A stretch of 64,000 bases of DNA from positions 717 to 64,716 of IMG/VR virus record IMGVR_UViG_3300045581_000594; one strand, written 5' to 3'. Within the stretch, counting starts at the first letter, position 1. Every line of letters starts with the position of its first letter. The stretch is from a virus (lineage: Duplodnaviria; Caudoviricetes). Both the position numbers and the translations under genes were made by a program. The notes under the pieces are model-generated. The model saw nothing but the letters and a program-made list of their open reading frames with translations. It searched no databases and had not been told where the DNA came from. This document shows positions 29,730 to 46,324 of this stretch, piece after piece.

Positions 29730-30599
29730 TTACAGCCCCAAACTGGCCAATGTGGCATCAGCCTGCTTGACAATCTGGTCTGCCTTCGAAGCGATCGTCC
29801 CACGGGAGGACTCGTCGACTCCGCCAGTGCCTGCAGCGATCACCTCGGCAGAGGAGTCGAGCAGATCATTGATCTCGGGCAGATCCATGACGTTGAGATC
29901 ACGCACACGGCGGACTTCGTCACGCAGCTTGTCGAACTGCGAGAGGTGCAGTCGCTTGGCGTTACGCAGGCGGTCGATGAACTCAACCAAGGTGTCACGC
30001 AGGTCAAGGACAGGACCGCTGTGTGCTTGACGCAGCATGTCGTCGATGTGTGCCTGTGATTCGGCACGTACCCTGTTGGCTACCTCGTCGGCCACACCCT
30101 TGAGGACACTGTCCTGCAGGGAGACGTGGCTGTTGACGATGGTGAGGGTCATCGTGAACTTGGAAGCAACCTCGGTGGCGGACGGGATGGTCACCTCGTC
30201 GGCGAACTTGCCGAGACGTAGACGCAGTCCGTTCATCAGGGTGGGGTAGGTTGCCACGATGTCCTCACGCACAGTGTCAAGCTCAAGCATGGCATCGTCG
30301 TAGATATTCTGGGCTGTGGCAATTTCCTTGACAGGCAGGTAGAACCCGCCCGTCCGACACGGCAACCCGAGGCGACGGAGGCTGACCCCTGTGCGTTGCA
30401 GCAGGGAGATAGCACGTCCGATCGCTGTTCCTCTCGCCGTGAGTACGGTGTTGTAGACCCGAGCAGCTTGACGCTCTGCTCCCGCATCGGTCGTGACCCG
30501 AGCGGTGGCTGAGCGGTTCAGTGCGTTGGTCGCAGGTGCGCTGGTATTGTAGTAGGCAAGCACGAGGCTGTGCACTTTGTTTATCTGGTTGTCTTTCAT
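29730..30599 (-). CDS. Helical protein between AAA and vWA genes (DUF3150-like)
   Basis: 289 aa; GGFYLP motif and position in the AAA-X-vWA triad. Confidence 0.65.
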   Translation of the reverse strand: MKDNQINKVHSLVLAYYNTSAPATNALNRSATARVTTDAGAERQAARVYNTVLTARGTAIGRAISLLQRTGVSLRRLGLPCRTGGFYLPVKEIATAQNIYDDAMLELDTVREDIVATYPTLMNGLRLRLGKFADEVTIPSATEVASKFTMTLTIVNSHVSLQDSVLKGVADEVANRVRAESQAHIDDMLRQAHSGPVLDLRDTLVEFIDRLRNAKRLHLSQFDKLRDEVRRVRDLNVMDLPEINDLLDSSAEVIAAGTGGVDESSRGTIASKADQIVKQADATLASLGL

Positions 30600-30639
30600 A
30601 ATGTTGGTTCAGTCTTATTGGTTTAGGATAGATGTTTGA

Positions 30640-31734
30640 TTAGCCGACGATCAGGTCATGGCTGCGGGCATGCTCATCGAGCGGGATACCACGACGGACA
30701 CTTGCCCGTGCGCCGTATTCGCGGATGTCACCACGGCAGCGGAGCAGCAGCGACACGAGCCAATCGAACTTGCCACCAGCCACAGCCACACCGAGGTCAT
30801 CGAAGCCGACGTGGGCAGACGCAAGGCAGCAGCTCACCAAGGCGAACTGTGCGGCGGCATCCTCGGGGATGACGAACGAGTCGGGATCTTTACGCAGGGA
30901 GGCAATGTCAGGTAGCTTGTCCACGTGCTGGAGGAATCCACGGAAGGCGAGGGTGGTCGCCTTGCCTACGCAGGATTCCACGTGCTTGAAGTATGCCTCC
31001 TTGTGGGTCAAACGGTAAGGCTCGGCGAGGGCTACCTTCTCCCATTGGCGGGGGCATGGGTGGGGTGAGCCATCGTAGGGCATCTTGGTCGGAGGACAGA
31101 AGTGATCGACGTTCTCCCCGTAGTTGTGGGTGAACTTGAGGAAGGCCATCACATGAGACCCTGAGTTGACGAGAGCGGGCTGTGTCTCAGCCCACGCCAA
31201 CCAGTCGCCGATGTCGGGAAGCAGGGTGTACTTGGCGCAACGTGTGGTAAATGGGGCTTCCTCCACCTTGGCTGCCGTTCCGTCAATCCGTCTGTTGCCA
31301 AGAGCAACGACACGGATGTTGCTGCCTAAGACGTGAGTGCCCACCCTTGGCTTACCCTGTGCAGGATACAGGGATCGGAGCAGGGCACGAACCTCACGCT
31401 CGTAGTCATTGATCTCGTCGAGCACAAGCAGGACGGGGCGGTCACCGACACGTGCTTCGGTCGGCCATTGGACGGGAGCATAGAACTCCATGTCGCCGTT
31501 GTCCTGCGGGTTACCATAACCGAGGCACTCGGTCGGGGCTGCGCCGTTGAGGTTGACATACCAGAGCTCACGACCTGTCAGGTCAGGGAGCACCTTGCAT
31601 GCGATGGATGTCTTGCCTGCGCCGCCGGGCCCTTCAAGGAACAGGAAGTTGCCGACTTCGAAGGCGATCTGTGCCTGCAATGGGACTTGGGCGGGGGTAA
31701 TAACTGGGGCTGTATTTACTGTATTGGTATTCAT
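30640..31734 (-). CDS. MoxR/dynein-related AAA+ ATPase
   Basis: GPGGAGKT, LVLDE, ALGN and PCPRQWE; start placed at ATG 31734. Confidence 0.9.
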   Translation of the reverse strand: MNTNTVNTAPVITPAQVPLQAQIAFEVGNFLFLEGPGGAGKTSIACKVLPDLTGRELWYVNLNGAAPTECLGYGNPQDNGDMEFYAPVQWPTEARVGDRPVLLVLDEINDYEREVRALLRSLYPAQGKPRVGTHVLGSNIRVVALGNRRIDGTAAKVEEAPFTTRCAKYTLLPDIGDWLAWAETQPALVNSGSHVMAFLKFTHNYGENVDHFCPPTKMPYDGSPHPCPRQWEKVALAEPYRLTHKEAYFKHVESCVGKATTLAFRGFLQHVDKLPDIASLRKDPDSFVIPEDAAAQFALVSCCLASAHVGFDDLGVAVAGGKFDWLVSLLLRCRGDIREYGARASVRRGIPLDEHARSHDLIVG

Positions 31735-31822
31735 TTTGTTTTGTTTTTGTCTTTTGAAGTGCCCTTGGCGGGATGCCTCGGGCTGAGATTTGCATATGGT
31801 ATTGGGTTTGTCCAATTATTTT

Positions 31823-33073
31823 TTACTCGGTGATGACTTCCCCGTCAACAGAGGCAATGCCAGCGTCGCAGGAGTTGGCCAGCCGACCGAGGAGCTGGTT
31901 GGATAGGGTGTTGAGCCCGTCGAAGTCCTCGTCGTAGCCATAGGTTACGAGCAGGTCGATGACGGCTGTCCTAGACAGGTCAAGGTTACGGAAGATATCT
32001 CTGCCGATGTAGTCGGGGATACCATCGTCGATGGTGCATGCCTTCGGGGGCAACAGATCCTCCTCGAACGCCCACGAACGGGAGCTGGGCTGTCGAAGCT
32101 CCATAGAGGCGAGCCTCTGCTGGATCGTGCTGGTGTTCGAGTCGGATATCTCTACTCCCCAATTCGATTTCTTCTTGGGGCTGGAGAAGTAACGGAAGTT
32201 ATCGACGGGGGTGTGTGCCCAGACCTGACCGCCAAGCAGGGTCGCTGCCTCGTAGGCGAGGGAGCAGGCAACGTCGAGCTGGCTGAGCAGGACATACTCA
32301 CTGTCACAGTGGGGCATGTGGTAGCCGGAGCTGATGTTGACCATGCTGACCTGCAGCCCACGATTGGCGAGCTCGCCGATGTCGGTGATGCTGCCATACG
32401 CCTCCGAGTGGTTGTTGTCGATGGCTGTCGGCAGGTTGAGCATGGCAGCAAAGAACTCGTCGCTCGAACAATCCATGCCGTTGGTCTCACGGATGATGTC
32501 CATCGTGCGGTTGTTGCGGTCGGCTTGGATGACGAAGGACGCATGCTTGAACCACGACAGTGGCACACTACCGCTGCCGAGACACCCGACTTCCTCGTCA
32601 CGGACAAACACCACAGTCACATGGTCGAGGCGGTGGAGCATCTGCATGGCTACGTAGATACCGCACTTGTCGTCACCGCCGACACCTGCAGGGGCATCGT
32701 TGGCATCGATGGCAGACAGCTCGTCGCCGTCAACCACCAGCTCCATGAACGGGGCATAGTCGTGCACCTGATCGAGGTGGGCTAGGAAGTAGGGGTGAGG
32801 GCCTGATGCGTCACCCTTGCGGATGAGCATGTTGCCCGCCTTCCTGACCACAGTGCACCCCTCGGGGGCGAGGGCAGTCAGGGCAGCGATCATGTGATCG
32901 TTGCACTTCTTCATCTTGCTGGGGTTCTGGAGGATGAAGATGTCGTTAATCATCTGCATGTCGATGAACTCCATAGACTGGGTAGTCCGTTGGATGAAAC
33001 GCTTGCCCGCACTACGTTCGTTACGGCGGGAGAACAGGCGATGTTTTGATTTTGATTTTGATTTCTTGTACAT
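31823..33073 (-). CDS. M20/M28-family zinc peptidase
   Basis: AHLDQV, GGDDKCG, DEEVG and GYHMPH..E metal-binding motifs. Confidence 0.85.
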   Translation of the reverse strand: MYKKSKSKSKHRLFSRRNERSAGKRFIQRTTQSMEFIDMQMINDIFILQNPSKMKKCNDHMIAALTALAPEGCTVVRKAGNMLIRKGDASGPHPYFLAHLDQVHDYAPFMELVVDGDELSAIDANDAPAGVGGDDKCGIYVAMQMLHRLDHVTVVFVRDEEVGCLGSGSVPLSWFKHASFVIQADRNNRTMDIIRETNGMDCSSDEFFAAMLNLPTAIDNNHSEAYGSITDIGELANRGLQVSMVNISSGYHMPHCDSEYVLLSQLDVACSLAYEAATLLGGQVWAHTPVDNFRYFSSPKKKSNWGVEISDSNTSTIQQRLASMELRQPSSRSWAFEEDLLPPKACTIDDGIPDYIGRDIFRNLDLSRTAVIDLLVTYGYDEDFDGLNTLSNQLLGRLANSCDAGIASVDGEVITE

Positions 33074-33146
33074 ATTTTTGTTTGTTTAGTTGTAAGATAG
33101 GCTCGCTCTGACGCTGTGCCTCCCAGCGTTAATCACTTCGGGGTGA

Positions 33147-34691
33147 TTAGGCATCCGCTTCTGTGTTACCGCAGATCAGTACGATCTCGTTGTCCTCGGT
33201 GCGGGTCAGTGAGTGGTGGAACACCCGTCCGTCGGCGAGTGTGACACTGTCATCAACAAGCACCATCTGCTCGTCCGCAGTCATGATCGCATTGTCCATG
33301 TGGCAGGACTCCCTTGTGTAATGCAGAGGGGAGAGATAGACGAGGTGGTCGTCGTGGATACGACCATCCCTAGTTGAGAGGGTCGTGTCGCCAAACCTGA
33401 CGTACCCTTCATAGTAGGGGACGTAGACTGCTTGGCTCTCCTCTATCTCCTCACCGAAGATATCCTCTACCATCGACTCAGGCTCCTCAACATCAAGCGA
33501 GCCGTCGGTGTTGTCAAGCTCGGAGAGTTTGTGGCAAGGCCTGTCATCCCTGTTGGAGAGCATGCCATCGTCATACCAGTGACGGAGGGAGTCAATGTAT
33601 GGGACATTGTCGTAGACGCATAGGGTGCTCGGTGTCGGGATAGACAGCAAGCGATAGGACAGATCGTTGGCAAAACCATCGGTGTGATACACACACTTGA
33701 CGATGTTCTCGTCACGGAGGAACTGCCTGACGGCATCGATCGCCTTCTGTGGGTGGCAGGAGTTGATACGCACACAGTAGACCCGATCAAGGTGATACTG
33801 CCCGTTGTCGTGCCATACCAGAGCACGCCCGCAGTGTGCACCATTGACCTTGATGAGCATCATGGACAAACGACCAGCACGTTGGAGGTCGTCATACAGG
33901 GCGAAGTAGGTGTAATCCTTGCCTGACATGCAGCTGCCCAGATCTATCTCCTCGTCTGCTTCCCAGTCGGAATAGACTTCACTGATGCAAGTCCCGTCAG
34001 GTATCCACTCCGCAGTGTATTGCTTGACCGCAAGGATAGAGTCAATCTGAGACAGCCAGAGGTTGGTGGCTGCCGTGTCAAGCGGTGGTAGTTCGTAACG
34101 CTTGAGCCACTTGTTGATTGTGGCAACCGGACGCCCCGCACAGGCTACAGGAATGTGATGGGAGTATGACGGGTATTGGAGGGTAGCCTCGACAGGTCGG
34201 AATCCCCGCATGGTCTTCGAGTCGAAGACAGAAGGAGGCAGATCAGGCAGCATGGTAGTGAGCTGCTTGAGTCCTTCTTCGGAGGAGATCAGGCTGTCCA
34301 GATCCACGCCCTGCTTGACACTACCAGCCCTGTCACCCGTTGGCTCGATGGGTGGCATCAAACGCAAGGTCATATCCCCACCTCGTGGATGAGCGAGCCG
34401 GATGGAGGTGATCGGCGTGATGGGCTGCCATCCGTCATTGTGACTCTCGGCGTCGATGGTTGTGCGGACAGTGAACGGGGCGAGCAGGGTGTCCTTGTTC
34501 TTGAAGACAAAGGGCTGCTTCCTCGCCAGTGCGTAGACATGGCAGTAAGTGCCCAGCTCCGGTTTGGTCGAGCGGATATGCCTAGCTAGGTGGTTAGTGA
34601 GCATGTCCCATGTCACCTCGGAGGCTTGGGTGATGGCTTCTTCATCTTCGGCGTTGCGTTTGGCGTTTTCGTATTCTTCAATGATGTTCAT
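33147..34691 (-). CDS. Phage protein with SCM...GRALVW...DRVY...PYIDS domain
   Basis: 514-aa ORF with a recurrent phage motif set of unknown function; stop lies in a palindrome. Confidence 0.8.
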   Translation of the reverse strand: MNIIEEYENAKRNAEDEEAITQASEVTWDMLTNHLARHIRSTKPELGTYCHVYALARKQPFVFKNKDTLLAPFTVRTTIDAESHNDGWQPITPITSIRLAHPRGGDMTLRLMPPIEPTGDRAGSVKQGVDLDSLISSEEGLKQLTTMLPDLPPSVFDSKTMRGFRPVEATLQYPSYSHHIPVACAGRPVATINKWLKRYELPPLDTAATNLWLSQIDSILAVKQYTAEWIPDGTCISEVYSDWEADEEIDLGSCMSGKDYTYFALYDDLQRAGRLSMMLIKVNGAHCGRALVWHDNGQYHLDRVYCVRINSCHPQKAIDAVRQFLRDENIVKCVYHTDGFANDLSYRLLSIPTPSTLCVYDNVPYIDSLRHWYDDGMLSNRDDRPCHKLSELDNTDGSLDVEEPESMVEDIFGEEIEESQAVYVPYYEGYVRFGDTTLSTRDGRIHDDHLVYLSPLHYTRESCHMDNAIMTADEQMVLVDDSVTLADGRVFHHSLTRTEDNEIVLICGNTEADA

Positions 34692-34824
34692 TGTGTTTGT
34701 CTTTCTATTTGTATTTGTCTAGTTTCTGATTACACACCATGTGTCATCAGACAGGAAGGCACATCGGGGGATATGCCCTCGTGTCTGATCCTTAATCACC
34801 CAGAAGTGATTAAGGATACAGGGT

Positions 34825-35091
34825 TCAGGGTTTTCTTCTCATCATTGATTCCACCGAAGTGATAGCCACCAACAGGGAGTCGGCGGATGTCACTTCGTAG
34901 ACGGCGGGGACTTCACCCAAGCAGCAGAATCCACTTGTATTTCCGACACCTACGTAGAACGTATCGTCGGAGTAGAGGTGGATGATTACTTCTTCATGGG
35001 CATCTGATCGTGTCTCCCTCAGCTGAAGGAGCAGGCGGTTCATGACTTTGCGAATGAGCCATGAGGCTAATACATTTTGTAGGTATCTCAT
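34825..35091 (-). CDS. Hypothetical protein
   Basis: MRYLQNVLASW...; start trimmed to ATG 35091 so it does not overlap 35111-35749. Confidence 0.55.
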   Translation of the reverse strand: MRYLQNVLASWLIRKVMNRLLLQLRETRSDAHEEVIIHLYSDDTFYVGVGNTSGFCCLGEVPAVYEVTSADSLLVAITSVESMMRRKP

Positions 35092-35110
35092 ATAGGTTAC
35101 AGGGTTCAGG

Positions 35111-35749
35111 TTACGGTTTGGGGTTGAGGATGTGGAATATCTGTGCAGCAACGTGCGCCCCGTGATCGGGGTGAGTAGCCACATAGGTGAGAAACGCGGC
35201 GTCAAACATCGGGATGTAGGTGAACGCTCCCTCGTATGATTGCGAGGTCGTGTCCCTGTATACGTCCCAGTCGTCGGCTCCGACCTCGACAGGTCCACAC
35301 TTCTCAAGCAGATGGTAGATGCTATCAGCCGTGGCAACCTCGTGGGGCTTGAGGTTTCCCCATGGTGCTGGGTTGTTACGCACCCTGTAGTGACCAATGG
35401 CACACGAAAGTGCAACTTGACGTGCCTCGATGGATGCATCCTCCAGATCGCTTTCAGTATACTTGAAGAGGCAGATGGCTTTATCGTAATTCCGTCGATG
35501 ATCTTCGGAGATGAGGAACTCAAGCATGGTGTCCGCCCAATCATCACCTTGCTGCCAGTCCTCGTCTCCCGCCGTGATGTTGCCGTTCGAGTCGATCTTG
35601 TAGGAACACTCCACATCCCAGTGACGGGGGGAGTAGTGGTCTGCGTTGCGGCACACCCAATCATCTCCGATTAAGGAGGCGCGGCGTATCTTGTCATGCC
35701 AACCTGCTTCGAGGAGTCGTTGCTGTAATGGTTTTAGGTCTTGTTTCAT
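35111..35749 (-). CDS. Hypothetical protein
   Basis: 212 aa; preceded by the box and ACAAGACAAAGACATT leader. Confidence 0.75.
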   Translation of the reverse strand: MKQDLKPLQQRLLEAGWHDKIRRASLIGDDWVCRNADHYSPRHWDVECSYKIDSNGNITAGDEDWQQGDDWADTMLEFLISEDHRRNYDKAICLFKYTESDLEDASIEARQVALSCAIGHYRVRNNPAPWGNLKPHEVATADSIYHLLEKCGPVEVGADDWDVYRDTTSQSYEGAFTYIPMFDAAFLTYVATHPDHGAHVAAQIFHILNPKP

Positions 35750-35830
35750 AATGTCTTTGTCTTGTAATACAGTAGTTCAGCTCACTTGATACGCTGTGCT
35801 GTTCAGCGTTAGGCTAATAGGATACAGGGT

Positions 35831-35980
35831 TCAGGCTGGTATTACTCTGGCAATCTTCCACCCGAAGAAGGTATTCGGATTGGAAACCTCACGGAAGAAT
35901 CCAAAACGCTTGTCGTCTTGGTATCCGAGGAAGACAGCCAGTGTGCCATCGTCTAGGGTAACTGTGTCGTTGATGTTCAT
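35831..35980 (-). CDS. Small hypothetical protein
   Basis: MNINDTVTLDDG...; starts at TGAACCC-ATG junction. Confidence 0.55.
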   Translation of the reverse strand: MNINDTVTLDDGTLAVFLGYQDDKRFGFFREVSNPNTFFGWKIARVIPA

Positions 35981-35984
35981 GGGT

Positions 35985-36497
35985 TCAGATGTTTCTCCAT
36001 CCATAGGTGCGGACAGCAATGCGACCACCCGACAGCGAGCGGGTCGAGGCGATAGATGACGAGACGCACCCACAGCAGTCATGCTCGTGGTGGCATCGGT
36101 ATCTGAAGTGGTCTTCAATGTCCTCCTGATTGGCTGCAGGGATGATGGCAATGGCACGGAACGAATCGCCTGAGCGATCCCATTTGGTTTTCTCTTTGAT
36201 GATGGTCATAGGGTTCAGGGCACAGGGTTCGTCATGGCATTGGCTACTCCGCCTCGTTACGGCTTCTGCCAGCACCTCGCTGAGATGGTAGTTCATGACG
36301 TCCCAGTTCAGACCGATGTTGCAGTCCTTGTGGTGATCCATGCGGCGGAGGACTTCCTCTGCTTGCTCCTGAGTTACCTCAGATTCGGCATAGCGGTTGC
36401 CTGTTCGTCTCACGTCGTCAACCTGCCACAGATCGTAGGCAATGACGTCGTCGGGGTTGTAGTCCAATAGGTGGTTGATTAGTTCTTTAACTGTCAT
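35985..36497 (-). CDS. Hypothetical protein, probable in-frame fusion of two small genes
   Basis: Internal TGAACCCT-ATG junction at 36209; C-terminal half has CHHEHDCCGC. Confidence 0.7.
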   Translation of the reverse strand: MTVKELINHLLDYNPDDVIAYDLWQVDDVRRTGNRYAESEVTQEQAEEVLRRMDHHKDCNIGLNWDVMNYHLSEVLAEAVTRRSSQCHDEPCALNPMTIIKEKTKWDRSGDSFRAIAIIPAANQEDIEDHFRYRCHHEHDCCGCVSSSIASTRSLSGGRIAVRTYGWRNI

Positions 36498-36569
36498 ATG
36501 CGTTTGTCTTGTAATTCAATAGGCTCACTTGAAACGCTGTGCCTCACGGCGTTAATTACTTCCATGTGA

Positions 36570-37073
36570 TTAAGCAGGCTCAGTGTCTTCGATGCCTGCC
36601 ATCTCTTTGGCTTCGTCTTCTTCGTAGCCCATCTCGTTCACGAGGAACGCAACGTGCAACTCAGGGTCGTCGATATTGGAACAGGTGTCGGAGACTTCCC
36701 CGCCGAGGAGTTCAGCGATACCATAGAAGGCACAGCCCTGCTCGTAGTAAGCGAGACTGAGCTGGACTTCAGGGAACATCTCCGATAGGGCACAGAGAGC
36801 CCCCAATGGAGGACTCCAAGCGGTATGGAAGGATGCCATCCCGTAACCGAGTAGCGTTCTGGCTGCTTCCTTTGCGTCGTCCGCTTCGAGATCCCACTTC
36901 GTCCCCCAAGCGTCAGCTTGAGCAGATACAGTGTCCCATCCATGTTCACCAGTTTCGGGACGGCTTGGCTTTACCATCCGCTCGAAGCTGAACCCACCTT
37001 CGCCTTCGAGGAAGGACTTGAAAGCGGGGGTCATGTTTGTAATTGTCAATTTGTTTTCGCACCAGTTTGGCAT
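36570..37073 (-). CDS. YubB/DUF1281-like ferredoxin-fold protein
   Basis: MPNWCEN...WGTKWD...FHTAWSPP...YYEQG..FYG. Confidence 0.85.
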   Translation of the reverse strand: MPNWCENKLTITNMTPAFKSFLEGEGGFSFERMVKPSRPETGEHGWDTVSAQADAWGTKWDLEADDAKEAARTLLGYGMASFHTAWSPPLGALCALSEMFPEVQLSLAYYEQGCAFYGIAELLGGEVSDTCSNIDDPELHVAFLVNEMGYEEDEAKEMAGIEDTEPA

Positions 37074-37197
37074 AATGTTTGTTCTTTCTTTGTCTTGTAA
37101 TTCAATAGGCTCACTTGAAACGCTGTGCCTTACGGCGTTAATTACCTGCAAGTGATTAAGACTTGCGGGACAATGGAGATGTATGTAGTGTGCTGCC

Positions 37198-37488
37198 ATG
37201 AAAGATGCTATCGCACGCAACGCCATCAAACGGGCAATGGTCGAGGGGTTCAACCGCCCGAAACGCACACCGAACCATCCGACCAAGAGTCACATCGTTG
37301 TAGCCAAGGAAGGCAACAAGGTGAAGACAATAAGGTTCGGACAGCAGGGCGTATCGGGTAGCCCGAAGAAGGCGGGGGAGTCAGCTTCATATGCAGCAAG
37401 ACGCAGGTCATTCAAAGCCCGCCACGCCAAGAACATTGCCAAGGGCAAGATGTCGGCGGCGTATTGGGCTGACAAGGTGAAGTGGTAA
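37198..37488 (+). CDS. Small basic phage protein (KTIRFGQQG...RRRSFKARH...SAAYWA family), inverted in the early array
   Basis: Recognisable aquatic-phage motif set; own promoter TTGCGG-17-TAGTGT at 37163-37191. Confidence 0.85.
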   Translation: MKDAIARNAIKRAMVEGFNRPKRTPNHPTKSHIVVAKEGNKVKTIRFGQQGVSGSPKKAGESASYAARRRSFKARHAKNIAKGKMSAAYWADKVKW

Positions 37489-37509
37489 GCCTTAATCACT
37501 TCGAGGTGA

Positions 37510-37839
37510 TTAAGCAAAGGCGGCGACTTCACGATCCAGCTCATCGCCGTCAAGGATGTTACGCTCATCTGCGATCATCTCCGAGTGAGCGGCAAGGATC
37601 TCCGAGTAGACTCCGATGTCATCGAAGTTCCAGAACGACAGCATCGGGAAGATCTCCGACGCAAGCTGGGCGGGGATGGTGTCATAAACACGGCAGATCA
37701 TCACGATCTCGACGAAGCGACGAACGAACGGACGGCGATCATCGCCGTCATTTGCCCCGAACAGCTCACCGACTTGCGTCTTGCAAGCGGCGGCTAGGAT
37801 GGATCTCCGATGAACGGAGCATAGGTTATGGTATCTCAT
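37510..37839 (-). CDS. Hypothetical protein
   Basis: 109 aa, bounded by palindromes; stop lies in a palindrome. Confidence 0.65.
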   Translation of the reverse strand: MRYHNLCSVHRRSILAAACKTQVGELFGANDGDDRRPFVRRFVEIVMICRVYDTIPAQLASEIFPMLSFWNFDDIGVYSEILAAHSEMIADERNILDGDELDREVAAFA

Positions 37840-38153
37840 ACGTTAATTACTTTCAGGTGATTAAGGTTTAAGGGCTTGAGTTGGATGCGTTTGCCCCAAC
37901 TGCTGAGGCTAACGATTTCGTAAGTGTCAGGTATTAACGGCAGTGGCATAGCCACAGCTTCATACCATTCCCCGTCTATCACTGTACCTCCATTGTAACG
38001 GATAGTTTGCCCGTATTGAGGGTAGGGCGAGGCATTGCTTGCGATGATGCCTTTCGGCGGTCTATCGCCATAGGCATTGGGGGGTGCATGCCTTGCCCTT
38101 TTAGCACATTCTGCTTCATCCCAAATCTGTTGAGGATAAGTGTATGTTTGCAT
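37836..38153 (-). CDS. Hypothetical protein
   Basis: MQTYTYPQQIWDE...; reads through the 37843 palindrome and couples to the next gene. Confidence 0.65.
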   Translation of the reverse strand: MQTYTYPQQIWDEAECAKRARHAPPNAYGDRPPKGIIASNASPYPQYGQTIRYNGGTVIDGEWYEAVAMPLPLIPDTYEIVSLSSWGKRIQLKPLNLNHLKVINV

Positions 38154-38227
38154 AATCGTATTTGTTTTGTTAATAGGTAGGCTCACTTGATACGCTGTGC
38201 CTCTCGGCGTTAATCACTTCCATGTGA

Positions 38228-38455
38228 TTAAGGATGTTTGACGAACGATGAGCGAGCATGCTCGACATCGCAGTGATACTTGCCCTGCAGGGGGGCGGTG
38301 TCGCCGAACACGATGACACGATTCCGTTTGACGACAACGGCGGTGCGTCGATCGATGAAGGCACAAACCAGCTCAACGATCAAGCCGAGCAGGTAGAGGG
38401 AACAGAGGGCGATAACAAACGCACTCCCGACGATGGTGTAGATAGCGAGGTTCAT
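38228..38455 (-). CDS. Small membrane protein
   Basis: N-terminal hydrophobic helix; stop lies in a palindrome. Confidence 0.65.
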   Translation of the reverse strand: MNLAIYTIVGSAFVIALCSLYLLGLIVELVCAFIDRRTAVVVKRNRVIVFGDTAPLQGKYHCDVEHARSSFVKHP

Positions 38456-38661
38456 AGTCTTGAGATAACAGGGTTGAGTTCAGTGAGACGGAATCCTGAT
38501 ACAGGTTTCAGGATAACGGATACATTGCCCTCCGTCATGCGGATGGCAGTGGCGATTGCTTCAGCCATTATTTCCCGCTGTTGGGCGGGGCTGAGCGAGA
38601 TGCGACGCAAGGTCGCAAGTTGACGACCGACTTGCATCGGTGTGATCGTTTCGGTTTTCAT
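38452..38661 (-). CDS. Hypothetical protein
   Basis: MKTETITPMQ...; AGACAAAGACAT leader. Confidence 0.6.
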   Translation of the reverse strand: MKTETITPMQVGRQLATLRRISLSPAQQREIMAEAIATAIRMTEGNVSVILKPVSGFRLTELNPVISRL

Positions 38662-38737
38662 ATGTCTTTGTCTAGTTATGGAATAAGACGGCTCACTTGA
38701 TACGCTGTGCCGTTCGGCGTTAATTACTTTCAGGTGA

Positions 38738-39157
38738 TTAAGCGAGGTTGGCGATGATTGCCTTGCGGTCGGCATCGTTGAGTTTGAGGGTTGCGATGTA
38801 AGCCAACGCCTTGCTGGCTTTCGGGGTCAGAGCAACCTTACGTCCATTACCACTACGCTTGTCGTTACCAGAGGACTGGCGGAGACGCAAGCCAGCATCA
38901 CGGAGGATGCGTTGGACGTATGCTTTGACGTATCCTGCTTTGAGCAGGAGCTTCTCGACTTGGCGATAGGCGGTTGCCATATCGACTTTGTCTTTCGACT
39001 TGCCGACGACTTGCTTCACTCTATCGGCAAGTGATGTCTTGGCTTTGTCAAACGCTTCATCGGCATTGAAGTATGCCAAGGCAAGAGTTTCAAGCTCTGC
39101 AAGGACTTCTTTGCTCAAGGACTTAACGACTGCATTGGATTTAGTATTCTTTTTCAT
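38738..39157 (-). CDS. Basic helical protein, first gene of the early array
   Basis: 139 aa, Lys/Ala-rich; flanked by palindromes. Confidence 0.8.
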   Translation of the reverse strand: MKKNTKSNAVVKSLSKEVLAELETLALAYFNADEAFDKAKTSLADRVKQVVGKSKDKVDMATAYRQVEKLLLKAGYVKAYVQRILRDAGLRLRQSSGNDKRSGNGRKVALTPKASKALAYIATLKLNDADRKAIIANLA

Positions 39158-39233
39158 ATGTCTTTGTCTTTCTTAATTACTTGAAGGTGATTAAGCGGAT
39201 CGCATCGTCCGATCGGATACCAGCGAATCTGCA

Positions 39234-39389
39234 TCCTGAAACAGGAATCAGGATACAGGGTTCAATCTCCCTTCACAAGTAAGGGACTACACCTACCCGC
39301 AATCCTTTCCCGTATCCTGTATCCTGCACCCTGATTCCTGATTCCTGAACCACTAGATATGGTAGAGGATACAGGATACAGGCTACGGG
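39234..39389. repeat. Heptamer (CCTGTAT-like) repeat cluster in both orientations
   Basis: Six tandem units at 39309-39350 (cccgtat cctgtat cctgcac cctgatt cctgatt cctgaac); inverted units at 39239-39264 and 39366-39389. Confidence 0.85.
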
Positions 39390-39548
39390 TGGGGGGTCAA
39401 ATTTTTCTGGAAACAGGTATAAATACAACCATGTGTGTAAAAAATAATTGAAGATACCCATACCTTGTGCTATCAAGGGGTGTGTCCACACCATATGTGG
39501 GGGTGTACCGATGATTTTCCTTATTTCACACCAAGACCAATCCAAATT

Positions 39549-39839
39549 ATGAGCGATCAACCCACACCAGATACCAAAAACGGCACGTATTACGCCAAGA
39601 ATCGAGAAGCAAGGAAGGCGTATCAGCTGAAAAGATACCATGCGCTCAAGAAAATGATTGCCAGACAGCGGAAACTCGCACGGGAACTGGAGCCTGAGAA
39701 GATGCAGGCCTACGACGAATATCAACGGCAGTATTATCGCAAGCATCGGGAGCGCATTTTAGCCCGAAAGAAGGAAATTTACGCCCAAAAACAACCTCGG
39801 CGGAGCCTCATTTCCCGTATCCGGAATCCTGAATCCTGA
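39549..39839 (+). CDS. Basic Tyr/Arg/Lys-rich protein
   Basis: YYAKNRE / YYRKHRERI repeats like the helical extensions of phage HNH proteins. Confidence 0.7.
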   Translation: MSDQPTPDTKNGTYYAKNREARKAYQLKRYHALKKMIARQRKLARELEPEKMQAYDEYQRQYYRKHRERILARKKEIYAQKQPRRSLISRIRNPES

Positions 39840-40018
39840 CTCAGGTAGCATTTACAGGAGCAATTTCGAGCTCCGATTTCGACATGTAAAGTTGTTAGGT
39901 TGCGATATCGAATGGCAACTTTCAAAGGGCGAGCTTGCAGGTTACAGGGTGCAACTTACGACTCGAATGTCGTATGTTTAGCCCTGAAAAGCAGATCCCT
40001 AGATTTTCCGTTTGCTCT

Positions 40019-40185
40019 TTTTGACGTCCCAGAGAAGTTTGAAAAGTTTTTAGAAACCTATGTAATGTAAGTAATGTATGTAATTCTATTAAGATATGTT
40101 AAAGGAATTACATGAATTACTTACATTACCTATATATAGAGAATTTTTATAAGTAAGATTTTTCAGGAATAGGGAAATTCAAACG
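40019..40185. repeat. AT-rich palindromic element, copy 2
   Basis: Direct repeat of 9562-9727 with scattered substitutions. Confidence 0.95.
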
Positions 40186-40216
40186 CTTGCTTTAATTCAT
40201 GTAATGCAAAAAAGAA

Positions 40217-40245
40217 TTGACAACTGGATTTTCGGGGTCTACGTT
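40217..40245 (+). promoter_or_regulatory. Sigma70-like promoter (leaderless spacing to ATG 40252)
   Basis: TTGACA-17 nt-TACGTT-6 nt-ATG. Confidence 0.6.
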
Positions 40246-40251
40246 CGGGGC

Positions 40252-40599
40252 ATGTCTGACACAACGATCGAACCTAACAACTCTTCGTGCAATGCGGCTG
40301 TCGCCGCGACAACCCGCTACGAGCCGAAACGGCTTCCTGAATCCTGTATCCCGATTCCGGACTATCCTGACTTTGCCCTTGACCCTGAGACCTACCTCAT
40401 CTGGCGGGCGAAGCCATCGAAGAAAGGCCACCGCGCTGGGGAGGTCTACCCCCTCAACCCGTGCATCCACCCAAGGGGCAGATTGTGGAGCGTGATGATG
40501 GTCGACGCCGAGGGCAAACGGAAACGGGTTGCCATCTCGAAAGTGATCCGTGAACTGACGGGAGAACTCGATACGCCGATGGGGCGTTTGGAGGCTTGA
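40252..40599 (+). CDS. NUMOD4-like DNA-binding protein without HNH domain
   Basis: IPIPDYPDFAL...LNP...V.M.DAEGKRKRVAISKVI resembles NUMOD4. Confidence 0.55.
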   Translation: MSDTTIEPNNSSCNAAVAATTRYEPKRLPESCIPIPDYPDFALDPETYLIWRAKPSKKGHRAGEVYPLNPCIHPRGRLWSVMMVDAEGKRKRVAISKVIRELTGELDTPMGRLEA

Positions 40600-40642
40600 C
40601 CTTGCCTGCTTTTTAGACTAATCGTAAATACCACACGCCGCT

Positions 40643-42928
40643 ATGTCCTCATACGTCACCCCACCATCCGCCGTCGCCGCAGCTCTCAACGAGTTGGAGC
40701 TTGCCACTCTCGACAAGGATGGCAACCCGCCCAAGGAGAGCCGGATGACCTCCGTGAAGAACGCCGCGAGCCTCTACGTCAAGCTCGTTCAGGCTGACGA
40801 GGAGAGTGCCCGCAAGCGTTCGAAACTTGACGCCATGTTCGATGGTGTTTCGCCCTACGATCAGGCTGTGTTGAAATCCACAGGACAGGGGGCTCGCACA
40901 AACGTGAACTTCGGTGAGGCTCAGCGTTTGCTTGACGTCGGACTGAGTTCGTTTGTCGACCTCTACTCCTCCCTCAAGCGACTGGTCAATGTTAGAATCA
41001 AACGCAGTGCGGCGGGCGAGTTCGATCGCACGGCCGCCGAGCAGATCATCGGCGAGGAGATCTCCGACGCCGTTCGCAAGTGGCCTGAGTTCCACTCCCA
41101 CTACCTGAGACTGGCTACCGAATACACGAAACATGGTGCAGGATTCGTTTACTTCGACAACGCCGTTGACTGGCGTTTCCGTGTTAGCGGTCTTGCCGAC
41201 TTCCTTTTCCCCCGTCAGTCCCGCGCCAGCGAAGAAGCCCTTGAGGTTTGCTGCGTGAAGTTCCCCTACATGTTGCACGAACTCTATCGCTACATCGATA
41301 GCGAGAACCGCGTGGCGGGCAGTGCCTCGTCGCAGAACTGGAACCTTGAGGAGATCAAGCGGGTGATTGTTCGCAACGCCAAGACCGACTCACGCACCTC
41401 CGGTGTGATGGGTTACGACTGGGAGCGGGCAGCTCGTGAGTTCAAGAACAACGACCTCTACATGGGCATGGAGAACACCACTGTCGACATCGTCCACATG
41501 TGGGTCAAGGAGTTTGACGGCTCGATCTCGTTCTTCATTTTCGCCGCTGACAATCCGCAGGAGTTCCTCCTGAAAGAGGTGTCCGTGTTCAAGTCGGCAC
41601 AACAGGCATACATCGCCTTCACCCAAGGGGTCGGCCCTAACGGGACGTTCCATTCGATCCGTGGTCTCGGACAGCGGATCTTTGCTCACATCCAGATGTC
41701 CAACCGCCTGCGTTGCCAGATGGTCGACAGTGCGATGCTGGCAGGCAGCGTGATGTTGCAGCCCGACAGCGAACGTTCGCTCCAGAAGCTGTCCTACACG
41801 ATGTACGGACCCTACTCGATCCTGCCTCCCCAGCTGAATGTTGTGGACAAGACTCCGCCTAACCTGAGCTCGGCGATGCAGCCAGCTCTTACGGACGTGA
41901 GCACCCAACTCGCCCTCAACGCCGATCCGTCAACTGTTTACCAGCAGCAGTCAAGCCCCTACCGCAACGAGCGTCAGGTGGAGAACGATGTTGCCATCTC
42001 GACCCGTCTAACAGGTAGCACGTTGAACCTGTTCTATGCCGCGTGGTCGCGCCTGTGGCAGGAGATCGTCCGGCGCATGGTTGAGAATCAGGATGACCCG
42101 TATGTCCAACGCATCCTCCAGAACATGGAGGAGCGGGGCATCGATCCGAAACTTTTTTCCGCAATCGACACTGACCTCACCTTCGCTGTCAAGGCGATCG
42201 GCAACGGCAGCGCGATTGCCCGTCTGGCCAACCTCCGCGATCTCTACACTGTCGCAGGCAACTTCGACGATGTTGGTAACCTGAACCTTACCCGCGACAT
42301 CACCTCCGAACTTGTCGGCTTCGATCTTGTCGATCGCTACGCACCGCCGACACCAGAGCCACGCACCACCAACGCCACGAAGATCGCCCTCATCGAGAAC
42401 GCTCACATGGAGCAGGGCATGCCCCTCCCTGTGCTCTCCGAGGAGCCACACGGCGAACACATCCGTGCCCACCTGCCACGCCTCAACGAGATCATCGCTG
42501 GCATCGACAGCGGCGAGATCGATCCGATGCAGGCACTCTCACAGGCGACAGTCTTCCACGAGCACATCACCCAGCACAATGCTGCGCTGGCCAACTCGAA
42601 GAACGCCCAAGGGCTCTACAAGTCGACCAAGCAGATTCTCCAGCAGAGCGGCGAGATCATCGCCAACTTCTCCAAGCGTCTCATGAAGATGCAGCGTGAA
42701 GCAGCCCAGCAGCAACAGGAAGCTGTTGGCGGGGAGGCAATGCAGGGCGGACAGCCACAAGCCGCTCCCGTCCCGACTCCGGCCGAGCTGAAGTATCAGG
42801 AACATCAGGTGCGCATGCGGATCGCCGAAGAGGTGGCCATGCAGGAAATGCGCCTCAAAGAGCTCAAACAGCAGCAGGAATTGGCTCTCAGAGACGCCAA
42901 AGAGGCTGCTTCGATGGGGCCTGCGTAA
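40643..42928 (+). CDS. Portal protein
   Basis: 761 aa, first gene of the head module, C-terminal Gln-rich coiled coil as in P22-like portals. Confidence 0.8.
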   Translation: MSSYVTPPSAVAAALNELELATLDKDGNPPKESRMTSVKNAASLYVKLVQADEESARKRSKLDAMFDGVSPYDQAVLKSTGQGARTNVNFGEAQRLLDVGLSSFVDLYSSLKRLVNVRIKRSAAGEFDRTAAEQIIGEEISDAVRKWPEFHSHYLRLATEYTKHGAGFVYFDNAVDWRFRVSGLADFLFPRQSRASEEALEVCCVKFPYMLHELYRYIDSENRVAGSASSQNWNLEEIKRVIVRNAKTDSRTSGVMGYDWERAAREFKNNDLYMGMENTTVDIVHMWVKEFDGSISFFIFAADNPQEFLLKEVSVFKSAQQAYIAFTQGVGPNGTFHSIRGLGQRIFAHIQMSNRLRCQMVDSAMLAGSVMLQPDSERSLQKLSYTMYGPYSILPPQLNVVDKTPPNLSSAMQPALTDVSTQLALNADPSTVYQQQSSPYRNERQVENDVAISTRLTGSTLNLFYAAWSRLWQEIVRRMVENQDDPYVQRILQNMEERGIDPKLFSAIDTDLTFAVKAIGNGSAIARLANLRDLYTVAGNFDDVGNLNLTRDITSELVGFDLVDRYAPPTPEPRTTNATKIALIENAHMEQGMPLPVLSEEPHGEHIRAHLPRLNEIIAGIDSGEIDPMQALSQATVFHEHITQHNAALANSKNAQGLYKSTKQILQQSGEIIANFSKRLMKMQREAAQQQQEAVGGEAMQGGQPQAAPVPTPAELKYQEHQVRMRIAEEVAMQEMRLKELKQQQELALRDAKEAASMGPA

Positions 42929-42990
42929 TTTTTTACATTACTTTTCTGGAAATAATTGACAAAATTGCTTCACTCAGCGATCTTCAACTC

Positions 42991-43392
42991 ATGTTTTTCT
43001 CATGGCGTTCACTACTCGCCCTTCCCAGAAGGGTGTCTAACAAAGTAAAAACCGACGGAGCAACCTCCGCTTCCCGCGCTCACTCCTCATATGCTCATGT
43101 CATTTATGAGCGGTGGCCGATGGCAAAGCGGATGAGGCTGTCCACCCTGCTCAACGATCCTGTCATGCTTGACGCGATCGGCACACTGCAGGTCAGAGCC
43201 GCTCAGGTATCCCCCAAAGTGGATGCGGCTCAGGCGTTGGCTTCCATCAATCACCTCAACGGGTACATGGCTATGGCTCATGACCTTATCGCTCTCTCCA
43301 CTCCGATCGAGTCTCAACACGACAGCTTGCAAGAGTGGGCTTACATCGAAGATGATGCGAGTCCTGTGTCGGGATCTCCTCCGATGGAGTGA
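42991..43392 (+). CDS. Hypothetical head-module protein
   Basis: Between portal and scaffold; TTGACA-17-GATCTT-6-ATG. Confidence 0.65.
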   Translation: MFFSWRSLLALPRRVSNKVKTDGATSASRAHSSYAHVIYERWPMAKRMRLSTLLNDPVMLDAIGTLQVRAAQVSPKVDAAQALASINHLNGYMAMAHDLIALSTPIESQHDSLQEWAYIEDDASPVSGSPPME

Positions 43393-43458
43393 ATACGTAT
43401 TGACAAAAATCAAATACCCACGTCCTGTCTTTTCCATTAACTAGAGTAACCAAATAAT

Positions 43459-44664: not shown

Positions 44665-44930
44665 CCTTAATCAAATAGTTTATTTTTGCAGTTGACGATT
44701 TGCATTTCTTATGCAATTAGTTGTGCAACCTAATACTGATTCAGGCAGCTCACTGCCAGCAAAGATTCTAACCAGTCCTGCAAAAGTGTTCTAATAGTAG
44801 TCAGAGGAAGGGATATCAGAAGCTATTCGGGGCTTGCCCCACCATCGCTCGCTTCGGCGGTGACAAACAATCGCTTGGTGTGCTTCGCACACTTTCCACT
44901 CTTATCCAACAATTCAACTAACTTACTACT

Positions 44931-46259: not shown

Positions 46260-46268
46260 ACCCTAAAC

Positions 46269-46305
46269 CCAGTGCCCCTGCTCCGGTGGGGGCACTGGTT
46301 CTTTT
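46269..46305 (+). terminator. Intrinsic terminator
   Basis: CCAGTGCCCC...GGGGCACTGG followed by TTCTTTT. Confidence 0.8.
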
Positions 46306-46324
46306 AGCCCTAACCTTCAATCAT

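What the first reader, a model, noticed from the sequence alone, without database searches (positions are those of the whole stretch)
33129..39194. Early genes are partitioned by nine 8-6-8 palindromes that also supply stop codons
Seen: TTAATYAC-N6-GTGATTAR at 33129, 34792 (extends to 12-6-12), 36552, 37138, 37492, 37843, 38210, 38720 and 39173; I saw it nowhere else in the window. Five genes end on the same TAA inside the arm (33147, 36570, 37510, 38228, 38738). Spacers are polar: seven begin TT (ttcggg, ttccat, ttcgag, tttcag, ttccat, tttcag, ttgaag) and two are the reverse type (ccagaa, ctgcaa). Known: inverted arms around a 6-bp asymmetric core match both tyrosine-recombinase sites (dif/lox type) and dimeric-regulator operators. 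Inference: a repeat-delimited gene-cassette array (one or two unrelated genes per unit) that is shuffled at, or co-regulated through, these sites. No recombinase is visible in the window.
Basis: partly seen in the sequence, partly recalled or inferred. Interest (0 to 1): 0.85.

Follow-up and report, generated by a model that had tools for sequence, protein, structure and literature searches.

The report
Phage gene cassettes bounded by repeated hairpins
Nine copies of one short palindrome mark the ends of small, fast-changing genes in an uncultured water phage, and related phages swap genes at equivalent repeats, much like a system already described in T4-like phages.

Summary
Nine TTAATYAC-N6-GTGATTAR palindromes lie at 33129-39194; none is expected by chance and there are no others in the complete 64.7-kb phage genome. 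The genes there are on the minus strand. In sense orientation the unit is: stop codon inside the palindrome, then (five sites) a conserved 22-nt box, an A-rich leader without a Shine-Dalgarno sequence, and the next ATG.

The layout is family-wide. Of 53 relatives with enough upstream DNA, 22 carry an array of their own clade-specific hairpin in the same place. None of 68 has one on the structural-gene side.

The enclosed genes are ORFans. Near-identical relatives differ by ORF-exact gain, loss or replacement at these repeats. One sister pair shows a compensatory C-G to G-C change in every copy.

No recombinase, Y1 transposase, T7-type RNA polymerase or sigma factor was detected.

Best reading (0.58): repeated intergenic expression cassettes whose hairpin is the gene-end module and whose repetition drives cassette exchange by homologous recombination, as with PeSLs of T4-like phages.

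The molecular role of the palindrome in this phage is unresolved. Five of nine sense-RNA hairpins are broken by a C·A mismatch while the arm sequence stays invariant, so a protein-binding operator remains a live rival.

The parts
39173..39194 (-). Palindrome 1 (sense TTAATCAC-cttcaa-GTAATTAA). It has no upstream gene and lies 15 nt before the ATG at 39157.
38720..38741 (-). Palindrome 2. The TAA stop of gene 38738-39157 lies in its 5' arm. It is followed by box B.
38210..38231 (-). Palindrome 3, with perfect arms. The TAA stop of gene 38228-38455 lies in the arm. It is followed by box B.
37843..37864 (-). Palindrome 4. It lies inside the 3' end of ORF 37836-38153 and 3 nt before the ATG at 37839. 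It is absent, together with that ORF, from a 97-98% identical variant.
37492..37513 (.). Palindrome 5, with perfect arms. It sits between convergent genes (minus 37510-37839, plus 37198-37488) and folds on both strands (about -10 kcal/mol).
37138..37159 (-). Palindrome 6, with a reverse-type spacer. It lies 39 nt upstream of the + strand gene and is followed, in minus sense, by box B.
36552..36573 (-). Palindrome 7. The TAA stop of gene 36570-37073 lies in the arm. It is followed by box B.
34792..34813 (.). Palindrome 8, which extends to 12-6-12 (about -21 kcal/mol). It is preceded by a heptamer motif that holds the TGA stop and is followed by a second hairpin instead of box B.
33129..33150 (-). 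Palindrome 9. The TAA stop of gene 33147-34691 lies in the arm. It is followed by a degenerate box B and the conserved peptidase-like gene.
38690..38711 (-). Box B copy (GGCACAGCGTATCAAGTGAGCC in sense).
38180..38201 (-). Box B copy.
37108..37129 (-). Box B copy.
36522..36543 (-). Box B copy.
35779..35800 (-). Box B copy with 2 changes (first G to A, last C to T). It has no palindrome and is preceded by the heptamer motif.
33100..33120 (-). Degenerate 21-nt box B copy.
33147..39157 (-). Array of about 12 minus-strand genes: 38738-39157, 38452-38661, 38228-38455, 37836-38153, 37510-37839, 36570-37073, 35985-36497, a small ORF ending near 35833, 35111-35749, about 34825-35079, and 33147-34691. 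Each is preceded by an A-rich leader of the type ACAAGACAAAGACAT with no Shine-Dalgarno sequence.
37198..37488 (+). Opposite-strand 96-aa gene (phrog_7595, E 2.9e-40) bracketed by palindromes 5 and 6. It is widespread in other phages.
34813..34830 (-). Gene-end heptamer motif (sense CCTGAAC CCTGTAT CC). Further copies lie at about 35819-35835, 35094-35110 and 39249-39265.
39373..39404 (-). A weak lead only: an A-tract followed by TTGACC, 16 nt, TATCCT, upstream of the array. It resembles the AAAAGAATTGACGG motifs of relatives.

Best explanation
The nine palindromes are the gene-end module of a repeated intergenic expression cassette. They sit in a roughly 6-kb hypervariable block of small ORFan genes, next to the divergent control region of an uncultured 64.7-kb phage.

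Read on the coding (minus) strand, a full cassette has four parts: a palindrome or hairpin that carries stop codons in two frames, an 8-nt linker, a 22-nt box B (candidate promoter or 5' structure), and an A-rich leader without a Shine-Dalgarno sequence that ends at the ATG.

Shown:
- The modules are repeated only in this block.
- The architecture recurs across the phage family with clade-specific hairpin sequences.
- Genes are gained, lost, replaced and re-ordered exactly between such modules in near-identical phages.
- The copies evolve in concert.

Inferred:
- The hairpin punctuates a read-through transcript, as a leaky terminator/attenuator, a 3'-end protection element or an insulator.
- Cassette exchange is a by-product of general homologous recombination between the repeated modules during co-infection, as proposed for PeSLs of T4-like phages.
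- No dedicated recombinase is involved.
For: (1) The repeats are confined to one block. In this genome 9 of 9 sites lie in 33129-39194. In two complete relatives, 15 of 15 sites fall within 6.0 kb of a 63,359-bp genome and 12 of 12 within 6.2 kb of a 58,465-bp genome.

(2) The layout is family-wide. The neighbouring 761-aa protein has 640 homologues. One search confirmed 151 related stretches and kept 80 loci. Of 53 loci with at least 6 kb upstream, 22 carry at least 4 dispersed copies of one hairpin with 8-nt arms upstream; 0 of 68 do so downstream. Two pairs of these loci look like duplicates.

(3) The anatomy is the same in relatives: stop, hairpin, often a second conserved hairpin or box, A-rich leader, ATG.

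(4) Structure, not sequence, is the shared property.
- Arm sequence and loop length (3-8 nt) differ among clades.
- Outer stem pairs covary among copies (L096 and L138).
- Relatives without identical repeats still hold 5.9 strong hairpins per 6 kb there, against 2.2 on the structural side (19 loci). Some of these look like classical terminators with T-tails.

(5) Gene turnover is high. The array proteins hit 0-4 of 80 related loci, whereas flanking genes hit 16-77.

(6) Cassette exchange is seen directly.
- A 97-98% identical variant (run X3) lacks ORF 37836-38153 plus palindrome 4. A collinear contig stops fitting at 34832, just past palindrome 8.
- In L061 versus L072, one ORF is replaced by two ORFs plus an extra hairpin, and homology ends within about 10 nt of the stop and start codons.
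- L095 and L096 are 98% identical on both flanks but have different cassette content and order.
- 25 of 44 block ends lie within 80 nt of a hairpin, against 11.4 expected.

(7) The copies evolve in concert. All 5 L061 copies have C-G at the innermost stem pair where all 7 L072 copies have G-C, including orthologous copies inside a block that is 97.4% identical.

(8) Stop-codon usage. Five of the six ORFs that end at a palindrome use the same arm TAA. By my hand calculation this has p of about 0.02 if reading frames were random.

(9) The known analogue. PeSLs are composite promoter-terminator motifs in ORFan-rich hyperplastic regions that mediate such indels (PMC2839356, abstract and passages; PMC4122927, abstract).
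Against: In this phage the hairpin is weak as sense RNA. Five of nine sites carry a C·A mismatch (-0.3 to -3.5 kcal/mol). The + (antisense, or template-DNA) strand folds at all nine sites (-4.6 to -11.9 kcal/mol).

The intergenic regions do not fold better than shuffles (z -0.5 to -1.6).

No palindrome is followed by a T-run on either strand, and none of the nine is itself called terminator-like by the scan.

No sigma-70-type promoter was found in the cassettes: 2 promoter-like sites in the region against 7.3 expected. The 'promoter' half of the PeSL analogy therefore has no support.

The arms are invariant while the spacer varies (7 variants among 9). That pattern points to sequence-specific recognition rather than mere pairing.

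31 of the 53 relatives have no identical-repeat array.

Breakpoints at hairpins are also breakpoints at gene boundaries, so cannot separate the two.

No RNA data exist.
Confidence: 0.58

Rival explanations
1. Operator sites. A phage-encoded (or host) dimeric DNA-binding protein recognises the duplex TTAATCAC half-sites and co-regulates the block, either by shutting it off through roadblocks at each gene boundary (stoperator-like) or by activating the adjacent box B.
For: - Sixteen arm positions are almost invariant while the 6-bp spacer has 7 variants among 9.
- The sense-RNA hairpin is disrupted at 5 of 9 sites, yet the sequence is kept.
- The only variable arm position is always in the half-site next to box B.
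- The palindrome sits at a fixed 8 nt upstream of box B in five cassettes.
- Every copy changed together between L061 and L072, as expected if a recognition specificity shifted.
- Stoperators show that phage repressors can act at many intergenic sites (PMC9283540, abstract).
Against: - The half-site spacing differs among clades (3 to 8 nt).
- Stems reach 12-14 bp, and the outer pairs covary. This is typical of hairpins, not of a conserved operator geometry.
- Relatives without repeats have unrelated hairpins at the same positions.
- No DNA-binding protein was identified in the array: Pfam, PHROGs and NCBIfam gave nothing, and the fold of the first gene's product was too uncertain to use.
- Box B also occurs without the palindrome (35779; L058).
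Confidence: 0.2
2. Selfish or neutral palindromic repeats (REP/MITE-like). They spread and are homogenised by recombination in a dispensable region and have no role in expression.
For: - The arrays are absent from 31 of 53 relatives.
- Copies evolve in concert.
- The hairpins here are weak.
- They are confined to the ORFan block.
Against: - No Y1 (RAYT/IS200-type) transposase is present.
- The position is strict: at the stop codon and before the leader, in one orientation relative to the genes.
- 5 of 6 ORFs use the arm TAA.
- Non-identical hairpins occupy the same slots in other relatives.
Confidence: 0.1
3. Site-specific recombination sites of an integron-like or dif/lox-like system, cut and rejoined within the 6-bp spacer by a tyrosine recombinase (phage, host XerCD or unknown).
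For: - The geometry is inverted arms around a 6-bp asymmetric core.
- The gain/loss unit is one ORF plus one palindrome.
- Two pairs of sites share identical spacers (36552/38210 and 37843/38720).
Against: - The complete genome has no Phage_integrase, Resolvase or Y1_Tnp.
- The spacers differ among most sites.
- Arm sequences differ among clades, so a conserved host enzyme is unlikely.
- The mapped indel has its junctions at the leader/ATG, not in the spacer.
- In L061/L072 the homology runs through the hairpins and ends in the ORFs.
- No arrays of the motif occur in 185,579 prokaryote genomes: 55 stretches, one site each.
Confidence: 0.05
4. N4-type hairpin promoters. The template (+) strand hairpin is extruded and recognised by a virion-packaged RNA polymerase carried in the 4486-aa protein.
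For: - There is a giant virion-type ORF at 12950-26410.
- All nine + strand hairpins fold, and the mismatches are T·G on that strand.
- Each palindrome precedes a gene.
- N4 uses template-strand hairpins (PMC4496689, passages).
Against: - The giant protein lacks the motif-B and motif-C patterns I recalled for T7/N4-type polymerases, and has no DxDxD.
- It has no PDB match.
- The six-frame RNA_pol Pfam search found nothing, but its control genomes were silent, so this weighs little.
- N4 hairpins have 5-7-bp stems and a conserved 3-nt loop; here the stem is 8 bp and the 6-nt loop varies.
- There is no strand bias family-wide: 48 against 31 wobble pairs, and mixed energies.
- 31 of 53 relatives have no array.
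- Some sites lie inside coding sequence or overlap stops.
Confidence: 0.05

Closest known systems
PeSLs (promoter-early stem-loops) of T4-like myoviruses (PMC2839356, abstract and passages read; PMC4122927, abstract read)
   Same: - Small repeated composite intergenic motifs that include a stem-loop.
- Concentrated in ORFan-rich hyperplastic regions.
- They flank single ORFs.
- Closely related phages differ by insertion, deletion and replacement of ORFs between them.
- Homologous recombination between the repeats is the proposed mechanism, with no dedicated recombinase known.
   Different: - The phage family is unrelated and uncultured, with genomes of about 60 kb.
- No sigma-70-like promoter is recognisable in the cassette.
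- The hairpin is short, AT-rich and carries the stop codon, rather than being a G-run/C-run stem.
- The arm sequence is clade-specific and changes in concert.
- Terminator and promoter activity and mini-circles were demonstrated for PeSLs. Nothing functional is demonstrated here.
Stoperators of cluster A mycobacteriophages (PMC9283540, abstract read)
   Same: Many copies of one short, lineage-specific motif in short intergenic spaces of a phage, acting on transcription that passes through.
   Different: Stoperators are asymmetric sites bound by a monomeric immunity repressor. They are spread over the whole genome of temperate phages. Here the sites are palindromic, confined to 6 kb, and the phage shows no integrase or identified repressor.
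Integron attC sites / gene cassettes (from my own knowledge)
   Same: An array of promoterless-looking single ORFs, each ending in an imperfect palindrome. The unit of gain or loss is one ORF plus one palindrome.
   Different: No integrase is present. attC sites conserve structure, not sequence, whereas here the sequence is conserved. The mapped junctions are not in the palindrome.
RNase III sites between T7 early genes, and REP elements in operons (from my own knowledge)
   Same: Conserved hairpins between cistrons of a polycistronic message that define or protect mRNA ends.
   Different: An 8-bp stem is too short for RNase III. There is no RAYT-type transposase. The sense-strand hairpin is broken in 5 of 9 copies.

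Membership tests
PeSL-type composite regulatory cassette | Repeated intergenic motif containing a stem-loop, concentrated in an ORFan-rich variable region | tested here: met
   9 of 9 sites lie in one 6-kb block. The array genes hit 0-4 of 80 related loci, against 16-77 for flanking genes.
PeSL-type composite regulatory cassette | Adjacent strong sigma-70-like early promoter with an AT-rich upstream region | tested here: not met
   The consensus scan found no promoter-like site in any cassette: 2 in the whole region against 7.3 expected. Box B is conserved but matches no promoter consensus that I could test.
PeSL-type composite regulatory cassette | Indels and replacements between close relatives with ends in the repeats | tested here: met
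   run X3 variant; L061/L072; L095/L096; 25 of 44 ends within 80 nt, 11.4 expected.
PeSL-type composite regulatory cassette | Stem-loop terminates transcription; mini-circles form between repeats | not testable with these tools
   No RNA run holds the phage. Only contigs could be laid, and only once.
Tyrosine-recombinase core site (dif/lox type) | A cognate tyrosine recombinase | tested here: not met
   PF00589 is absent from the complete genome, while all 14 control genomes rang. This does not exclude a host enzyme.
Tyrosine-recombinase core site (dif/lox type) | Identical central spacer in partner sites | tested here: not met
   There are 7 different spacers among 9 sites, and only two identical pairs.
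Tyrosine-recombinase core site (dif/lox type) | Recombination junctions inside the site | tested here: not met
   The mapped indel joins leader/ATG to ATG. In L061/L072 the homology runs through the hairpins.
Rho-independent terminator | G+C-rich stem followed by a T/U run | tested here: not met
   The stems have 2 G-C pairs of 8. No T-run follows on either strand. None of the nine is called by the scan. Some hairpins of relatives do meet the criterion.
N4-type hairpin promoter | Virion RNA polymerase of T7-like fold | tested here: inconclusive
   There is no PDB hit and no recalled motif-B or motif-C pattern. PF00940 is absent, but its control genomes were silent. The fold was not predicted.
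N4-type hairpin promoter | 5-7-bp stem with a conserved 3-nt purine-containing loop at a fixed distance from +1 | tested here: not met
   The stem is 8 bp and the 6-nt loop has 7 variants. Criteria taken from PMC4496689 (passages).
Stoperator | Asymmetric site bound by a monomeric immunity repressor, spread genome-wide | tested here: not met
   The sites are palindromic and confined to 6 kb. Criteria taken from PMC9283540 (abstract).

The most novel reading that the evidence does not exclude
The clade-specific hairpins may be targets of an active, still unrecognised, phage-encoded hairpin- or palindrome-specific nuclease or recombination protein. The block would then be an integron-like gene-exchange platform of lytic phages that needs no known integrase. 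The hairpin sequence would act as a 'compatibility tag' deciding which co-infecting phages can trade cassettes. Co-evolution of tag and protein would explain two observations: every copy switched C-G to G-C between two 96-97% identical phages, and in this phage the arm sequence is conserved although the sense-RNA hairpin is broken.
Probability: 0.1. Interest if true: 0.85.

Novelty: new variant of a known kind. Interest (0 to 1): 0.5.

Why it matters
The result extends repeat-mediated modular shuffling, so far documented for PeSLs of T4-like phages, to a large, entirely uncultured family of aquatic phages of about 60 kb. That family has 640 homologues of a marker protein in public data and none in 50,697 deposited phage genomes.

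It also adds two features that invite experiments: clade-specific hairpin sequences, and concerted compensatory change of all copies.

The arrays point to where these phages keep and exchange their accessory, probably host-takeover, ORFans. The cassette (stop-bearing hairpin, box, leader without a Shine-Dalgarno sequence) is a compact candidate expression module for hosts that do not use Shine-Dalgarno sequences.

If the hairpins turn out to be recognised by a dedicated protein, this would be a new kind of gene-exchange system.

Tried and rejected
- RNA evidence: no RNA holder was listed for the stretch, so transcript ends could not be mapped.
- Rfam and tRNA scans of the window found nothing.
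- The exact palindrome pattern in IMG/VR gave 51 contigs with one site each, so no related arrays were found that way.
- Box B gave 0 hits in IMG/VR, 0 in prokaryote genomes, and one 1067-nt metagenome contig, L058.
- The palindrome in 185,579 prokaryote genomes gave 55 stretches with one site each, taxonomically scattered. This gives no host clue that I would trust.
- A search for close relatives with the 514-aa protein found none.
- The strand-specific wobble test was uninformative. Family-wide there are 48 wobble pairs on the plus strand against 31 on the minus strand, and sense/antisense energies are mixed among clades. In the window the 6:0 bias rests on about two independent events.
- Box B as an RNA hairpin: there is one possible covariation (G...C to A...T in the 35779 copy), but RNAfold does not predict a common structure.
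- Box B as a sigma-54 promoter: I compared it by eye with the consensus I recalled. The -12 element does not fit, so I rejected it.
- The early promoter motif AAWWTTGACV gives 2 matches against 1.24 expected, which is not significant.
- The structure of the first array protein, folded from the single sequence, had pLDDT 58.6 and was too poor to search. The atlas search gave only unnamed viral clusters.
- PHROGs, Pfam and NCBIfam gave nothing for 7 of the 9 minus-strand array proteins scanned. Two hit only families of unknown function (phrog_10258, phrog_12644, Pfam DUF1281_C), and NCBIfam found nothing.
- Supplements of the PeSL papers were not opened. Their figures of consensus motifs may bear on the comparison.

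Full report
**Observation**

The pattern TTAATYAC-N6-GTGATTAR occurs at nine places between 33129 and 39194 (12 matches, three sites matching on both strands; 0.00 expected in 100 shuffles). Allowing two mismatches adds nothing.

The window is bases 717-64716 of a complete 64,716-bp virus record with direct terminal repeats. That whole record holds the same nine sites and no more.

**Anatomy**

The genes of the block are on the minus strand. Read in sense, each site is CTTAATCAC-N6-GT(G/A)ATTAA.

Five sites (33129, 36552, 37138, 38210, 38720) are followed in turn by:
- an 8-nt linker;
- a 22-nt box, GGCACAGCGTnTCAAGTGAGCC ('box B');
- about 20-35 nt of A-rich leader of the type ACAAGACAAAGACAT, without a Shine-Dalgarno sequence;
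- the ATG.

Box B occurs once more at 35779-35800 without a palindrome. The other four palindromes have no box B.

The modules therefore combine freely. A fourth module is a run of heptamers (CCTGAAC/CCTGTAT) at some gene ends.

One gene (37198-37488, phrog_7595, E 2.9e-40) lies on the opposite strand, between palindromes 37138 and 37492.

The palindrome carries stop codons in two of the three sense frames. Five of the six ORFs that end at a palindrome use the first TAA. The sixth (37836-38153) reads through the palindrome and stops 3 nt later, overlapping the next ATG.

**The phage**

Most proteins have no family. Recognisable are a family-A DNA polymerase, helicases, an ATPase, a peptidase-like protein, an HNH-like protein and a 4486-aa virion-type protein.

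Six-frame Pfam searches of the complete genome found no tyrosine or serine recombinase, no Y1 transposase and no sigma-70 region 2. For all of these the control genomes rang. The T7-type RNA polymerase search also found nothing, but its control was silent.

The giant protein has no PDB relative. It also lacks the polymerase motif patterns I recalled.

No phage among 50,697 deposited records encodes the neighbouring 761-aa protein. Public metagenomes, in contrast, hold 640 homologues, typically on contigs of 55-66 kb from fresh and sea water. This is a large uncultured family.

**Relatives**

One search confirmed 151 related stretches and kept the best 80 loci around the 761-aa gene, each with up to 10 kb of flank.

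None has the TTAATCAC palindrome. Many have their own repeated hairpin in the same place, upstream of that gene on the opposite strand. Half-site cores printed include CTTATTCSG, AGTCAAGA, GAGTTAGC, AGGGTATA, TTAACAAC, GGGTTAAC and GGTTTAAT, with loops of 3-8 nt.

Counted strictly (at least 4 copies of one half-site with 8-nt arms, spread over at least 1 kb):
- 22 of the 53 loci with at least 6 kb upstream have such an array upstream;
- 0 of the 68 loci with at least 6 kb downstream have one on the structural-gene side. L066/L067 and L092/L093 look like duplicates.

In two complete relatives all copies fall in one block of about 6 kb: 15 of 15 and 12 of 12.

In sense orientation the layout matches the window: stop, hairpin, often a second conserved hairpin or box, A-rich leader, ATG.

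The relatives' stems are longer (up to 14 bp) and far more stable, with clade means of -14 to -21 kcal/mol in many clades against -7.6 here. Their outer pairs covary among copies.

The 19 relatives without identical repeats that could be scored still hold 5.9 strong hairpins per 6 kb in that region, against 2.2 downstream. Some of these look like ordinary terminators with T-tails.

The conserved property of the family is thus a hairpin at the gene boundary. Identity of the copies is a clade-level overlay.

**Shuffling**

The array proteins of the window have homologues in 0-4 of the 80 related loci. The flanking ATPase, the HNH-like gene and a structural gene have them in 19, 21 and 77 loci.

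Evidence in this phage comes from run X3, a different study that holds 45% of the stretch's words. Its contigs were laid on 30000-42000.
- An 8.2-kb contig is collinear at about 98% from 30000 to 34832. It stops fitting just past palindrome 34792 and the heptamer motif.
- A 961-nt contig joins palindrome 38210, a box B and a leader directly to the ATG of gene 37510-37839. That variant therefore lacks ORF 37836-38153 and palindrome 37843.
- Two further joints (35807 to 38689 between two box B copies, and 34730 to 35830 in run X8) point the same way. They rest on short sides of 32 and 25 nt.

Evidence in relatives:
- L061 and L072 are 96-97% identical in conserved parts. The 165-aa ORF between two L061 hairpins is replaced in L072 by two ORFs with an extra hairpin. 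Homology ends 9 nt inside the 3' end of the ORF and resumes 11 nt before its start.
- L095 and L096 are 98% identical over 4.6 and 6.9 kb of flanks but differ in cassette content and order in between.
- Over eight such pairs, 25 of 44 ends of homology blocks inside the arrays lie within 80 nt of a hairpin centre, against 11.4 expected (binomial p about 1e-5). The ends are not independent, and hairpins coincide with gene boundaries.

All five L061 copies have C-G at the innermost stem pair where all seven L072 copies have G-C. This includes the two orthologous copies inside a block that is 97.4% identical. The copies therefore evolve in concert.

**What the palindrome does**

This part is inference.

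Position, family-wide hairpin potential and the built-in stops argue for a gene-end element that acts on a read-through transcript (attenuation, 3'-end protection, insulation of inserted genes). Box B plus the leader would then be the gene-start element. This corresponds to the composite terminator/promoter logic of PeSLs (PMC2839356, PMC4122927).

Against a simple RNA role in this particular phage:
- Five of the nine sense-RNA hairpins are broken by a C·A mismatch (-0.3 to -3.5 kcal/mol), whereas the + strand folds at all nine.
- No T-run follows any palindrome.
- The intergenic regions fold no better than shuffles.
- The arms are invariant while the spacer varies. That is the signature of sequence-specific recognition.

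The strand asymmetry is not reproduced across the family. In the window it rests on few independent events, so I do not build on it.

An operator for an unidentified dimeric protein therefore remains a serious rival (0.2). Against it stand the variable half-site spacing among clades and the unrelated hairpins at the same slots in other relatives.

Site-specific recombination and N4-type hairpin promoters are unlikely, for the reasons listed under the rivals.

**Verdict**

The cassette-array reading is supported, and it extends to a whole uncultured phage family. The recombinase-site reading is not supported.

The closest known system is the PeSL. This is a variant of it in an unrelated family, with a stop-bearing, clade-specific hairpin, no recognisable sigma-70 promoter, and concerted evolution of the copies.

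The molecular role of the palindrome (RNA hairpin, DNA hairpin or protein site) needs RNA-end mapping and binding assays.

Noticed in passing
window 9590-9700 and 40040-40190: There are two copies of an AT-rich element of about 110 nt, built as a long inverted repeat (37-nt arms, 84% complementary). Each lies upstream of a rightward block of large genes (9905-26410 and 40643-56165). They are candidate late promoter or regulatory regions, or origins.
   Followed up: partly
window 39233-39395, 39808-39850, 40323-40361, 9735-9820, 4866-4890; also L072 near 2850, L073 near 6340-6990, and L058: Runs with a 7-nt period (CCTGTAT, CCTGATT, CCTGAAC and their complements) occur in the control regions and at several gene ends. 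They are conserved in relatives whose hairpins differ. One metagenome variant (X4) has a 14-nt, two-unit expansion behind 34818. This may be the binding site of a factor conserved across the family.
   Followed up: partly
window 37198-37488 (+), especially 37408-37487: The opposite-strand 96-aa gene (phrog_7595) has a 3' end that is 70-87% identical at DNA level to Roseobacter, Lentibacter and Celeribacter phages and to cyanophages. It attracts very high depth in all four metagenomes laid. It occurs at different genome positions in 14 of 80 relatives, so it looks like a widely travelling gene.
   Followed up: partly
window 12950-26410 (+): A single 4486-aa ORF. Only its C-terminal part matches a PHROG of virion structural proteins. 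It has no Pfam or PDB hit and none of the recalled polymerase motifs. Its function is unknown.
   Followed up: partly
window 30596-30638: In the 97-98% identical variant of run X3, 41 nt between two conserved genes are replaced by 579 other letters. This is an insertion or replacement outside the palindrome array.
   Followed up: no
window 118-1340: Several 11-mers recur three times at similar offsets (about 118/821/1212, 133/836/1227 and 259/1061/1326). This suggests a threefold internal repeat in the first 1.4 kb.
   Followed up: no
L058 (1067-nt metagenome contig): A relative carries box B identical to the window's, but without the TTAATCAC palindrome. Elsewhere on the contig it has a 14-bp hairpin of the AGTCAAGA type after four CCTGAAC heptamers. 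Box and hairpin types therefore reassort between lineages.
   Followed up: partly
window 35079 and 37839: Two array genes begin with the same 10 nt (ATGAGATACC). Each follows directly on the previous gene's end, without box B.
   Followed up: no
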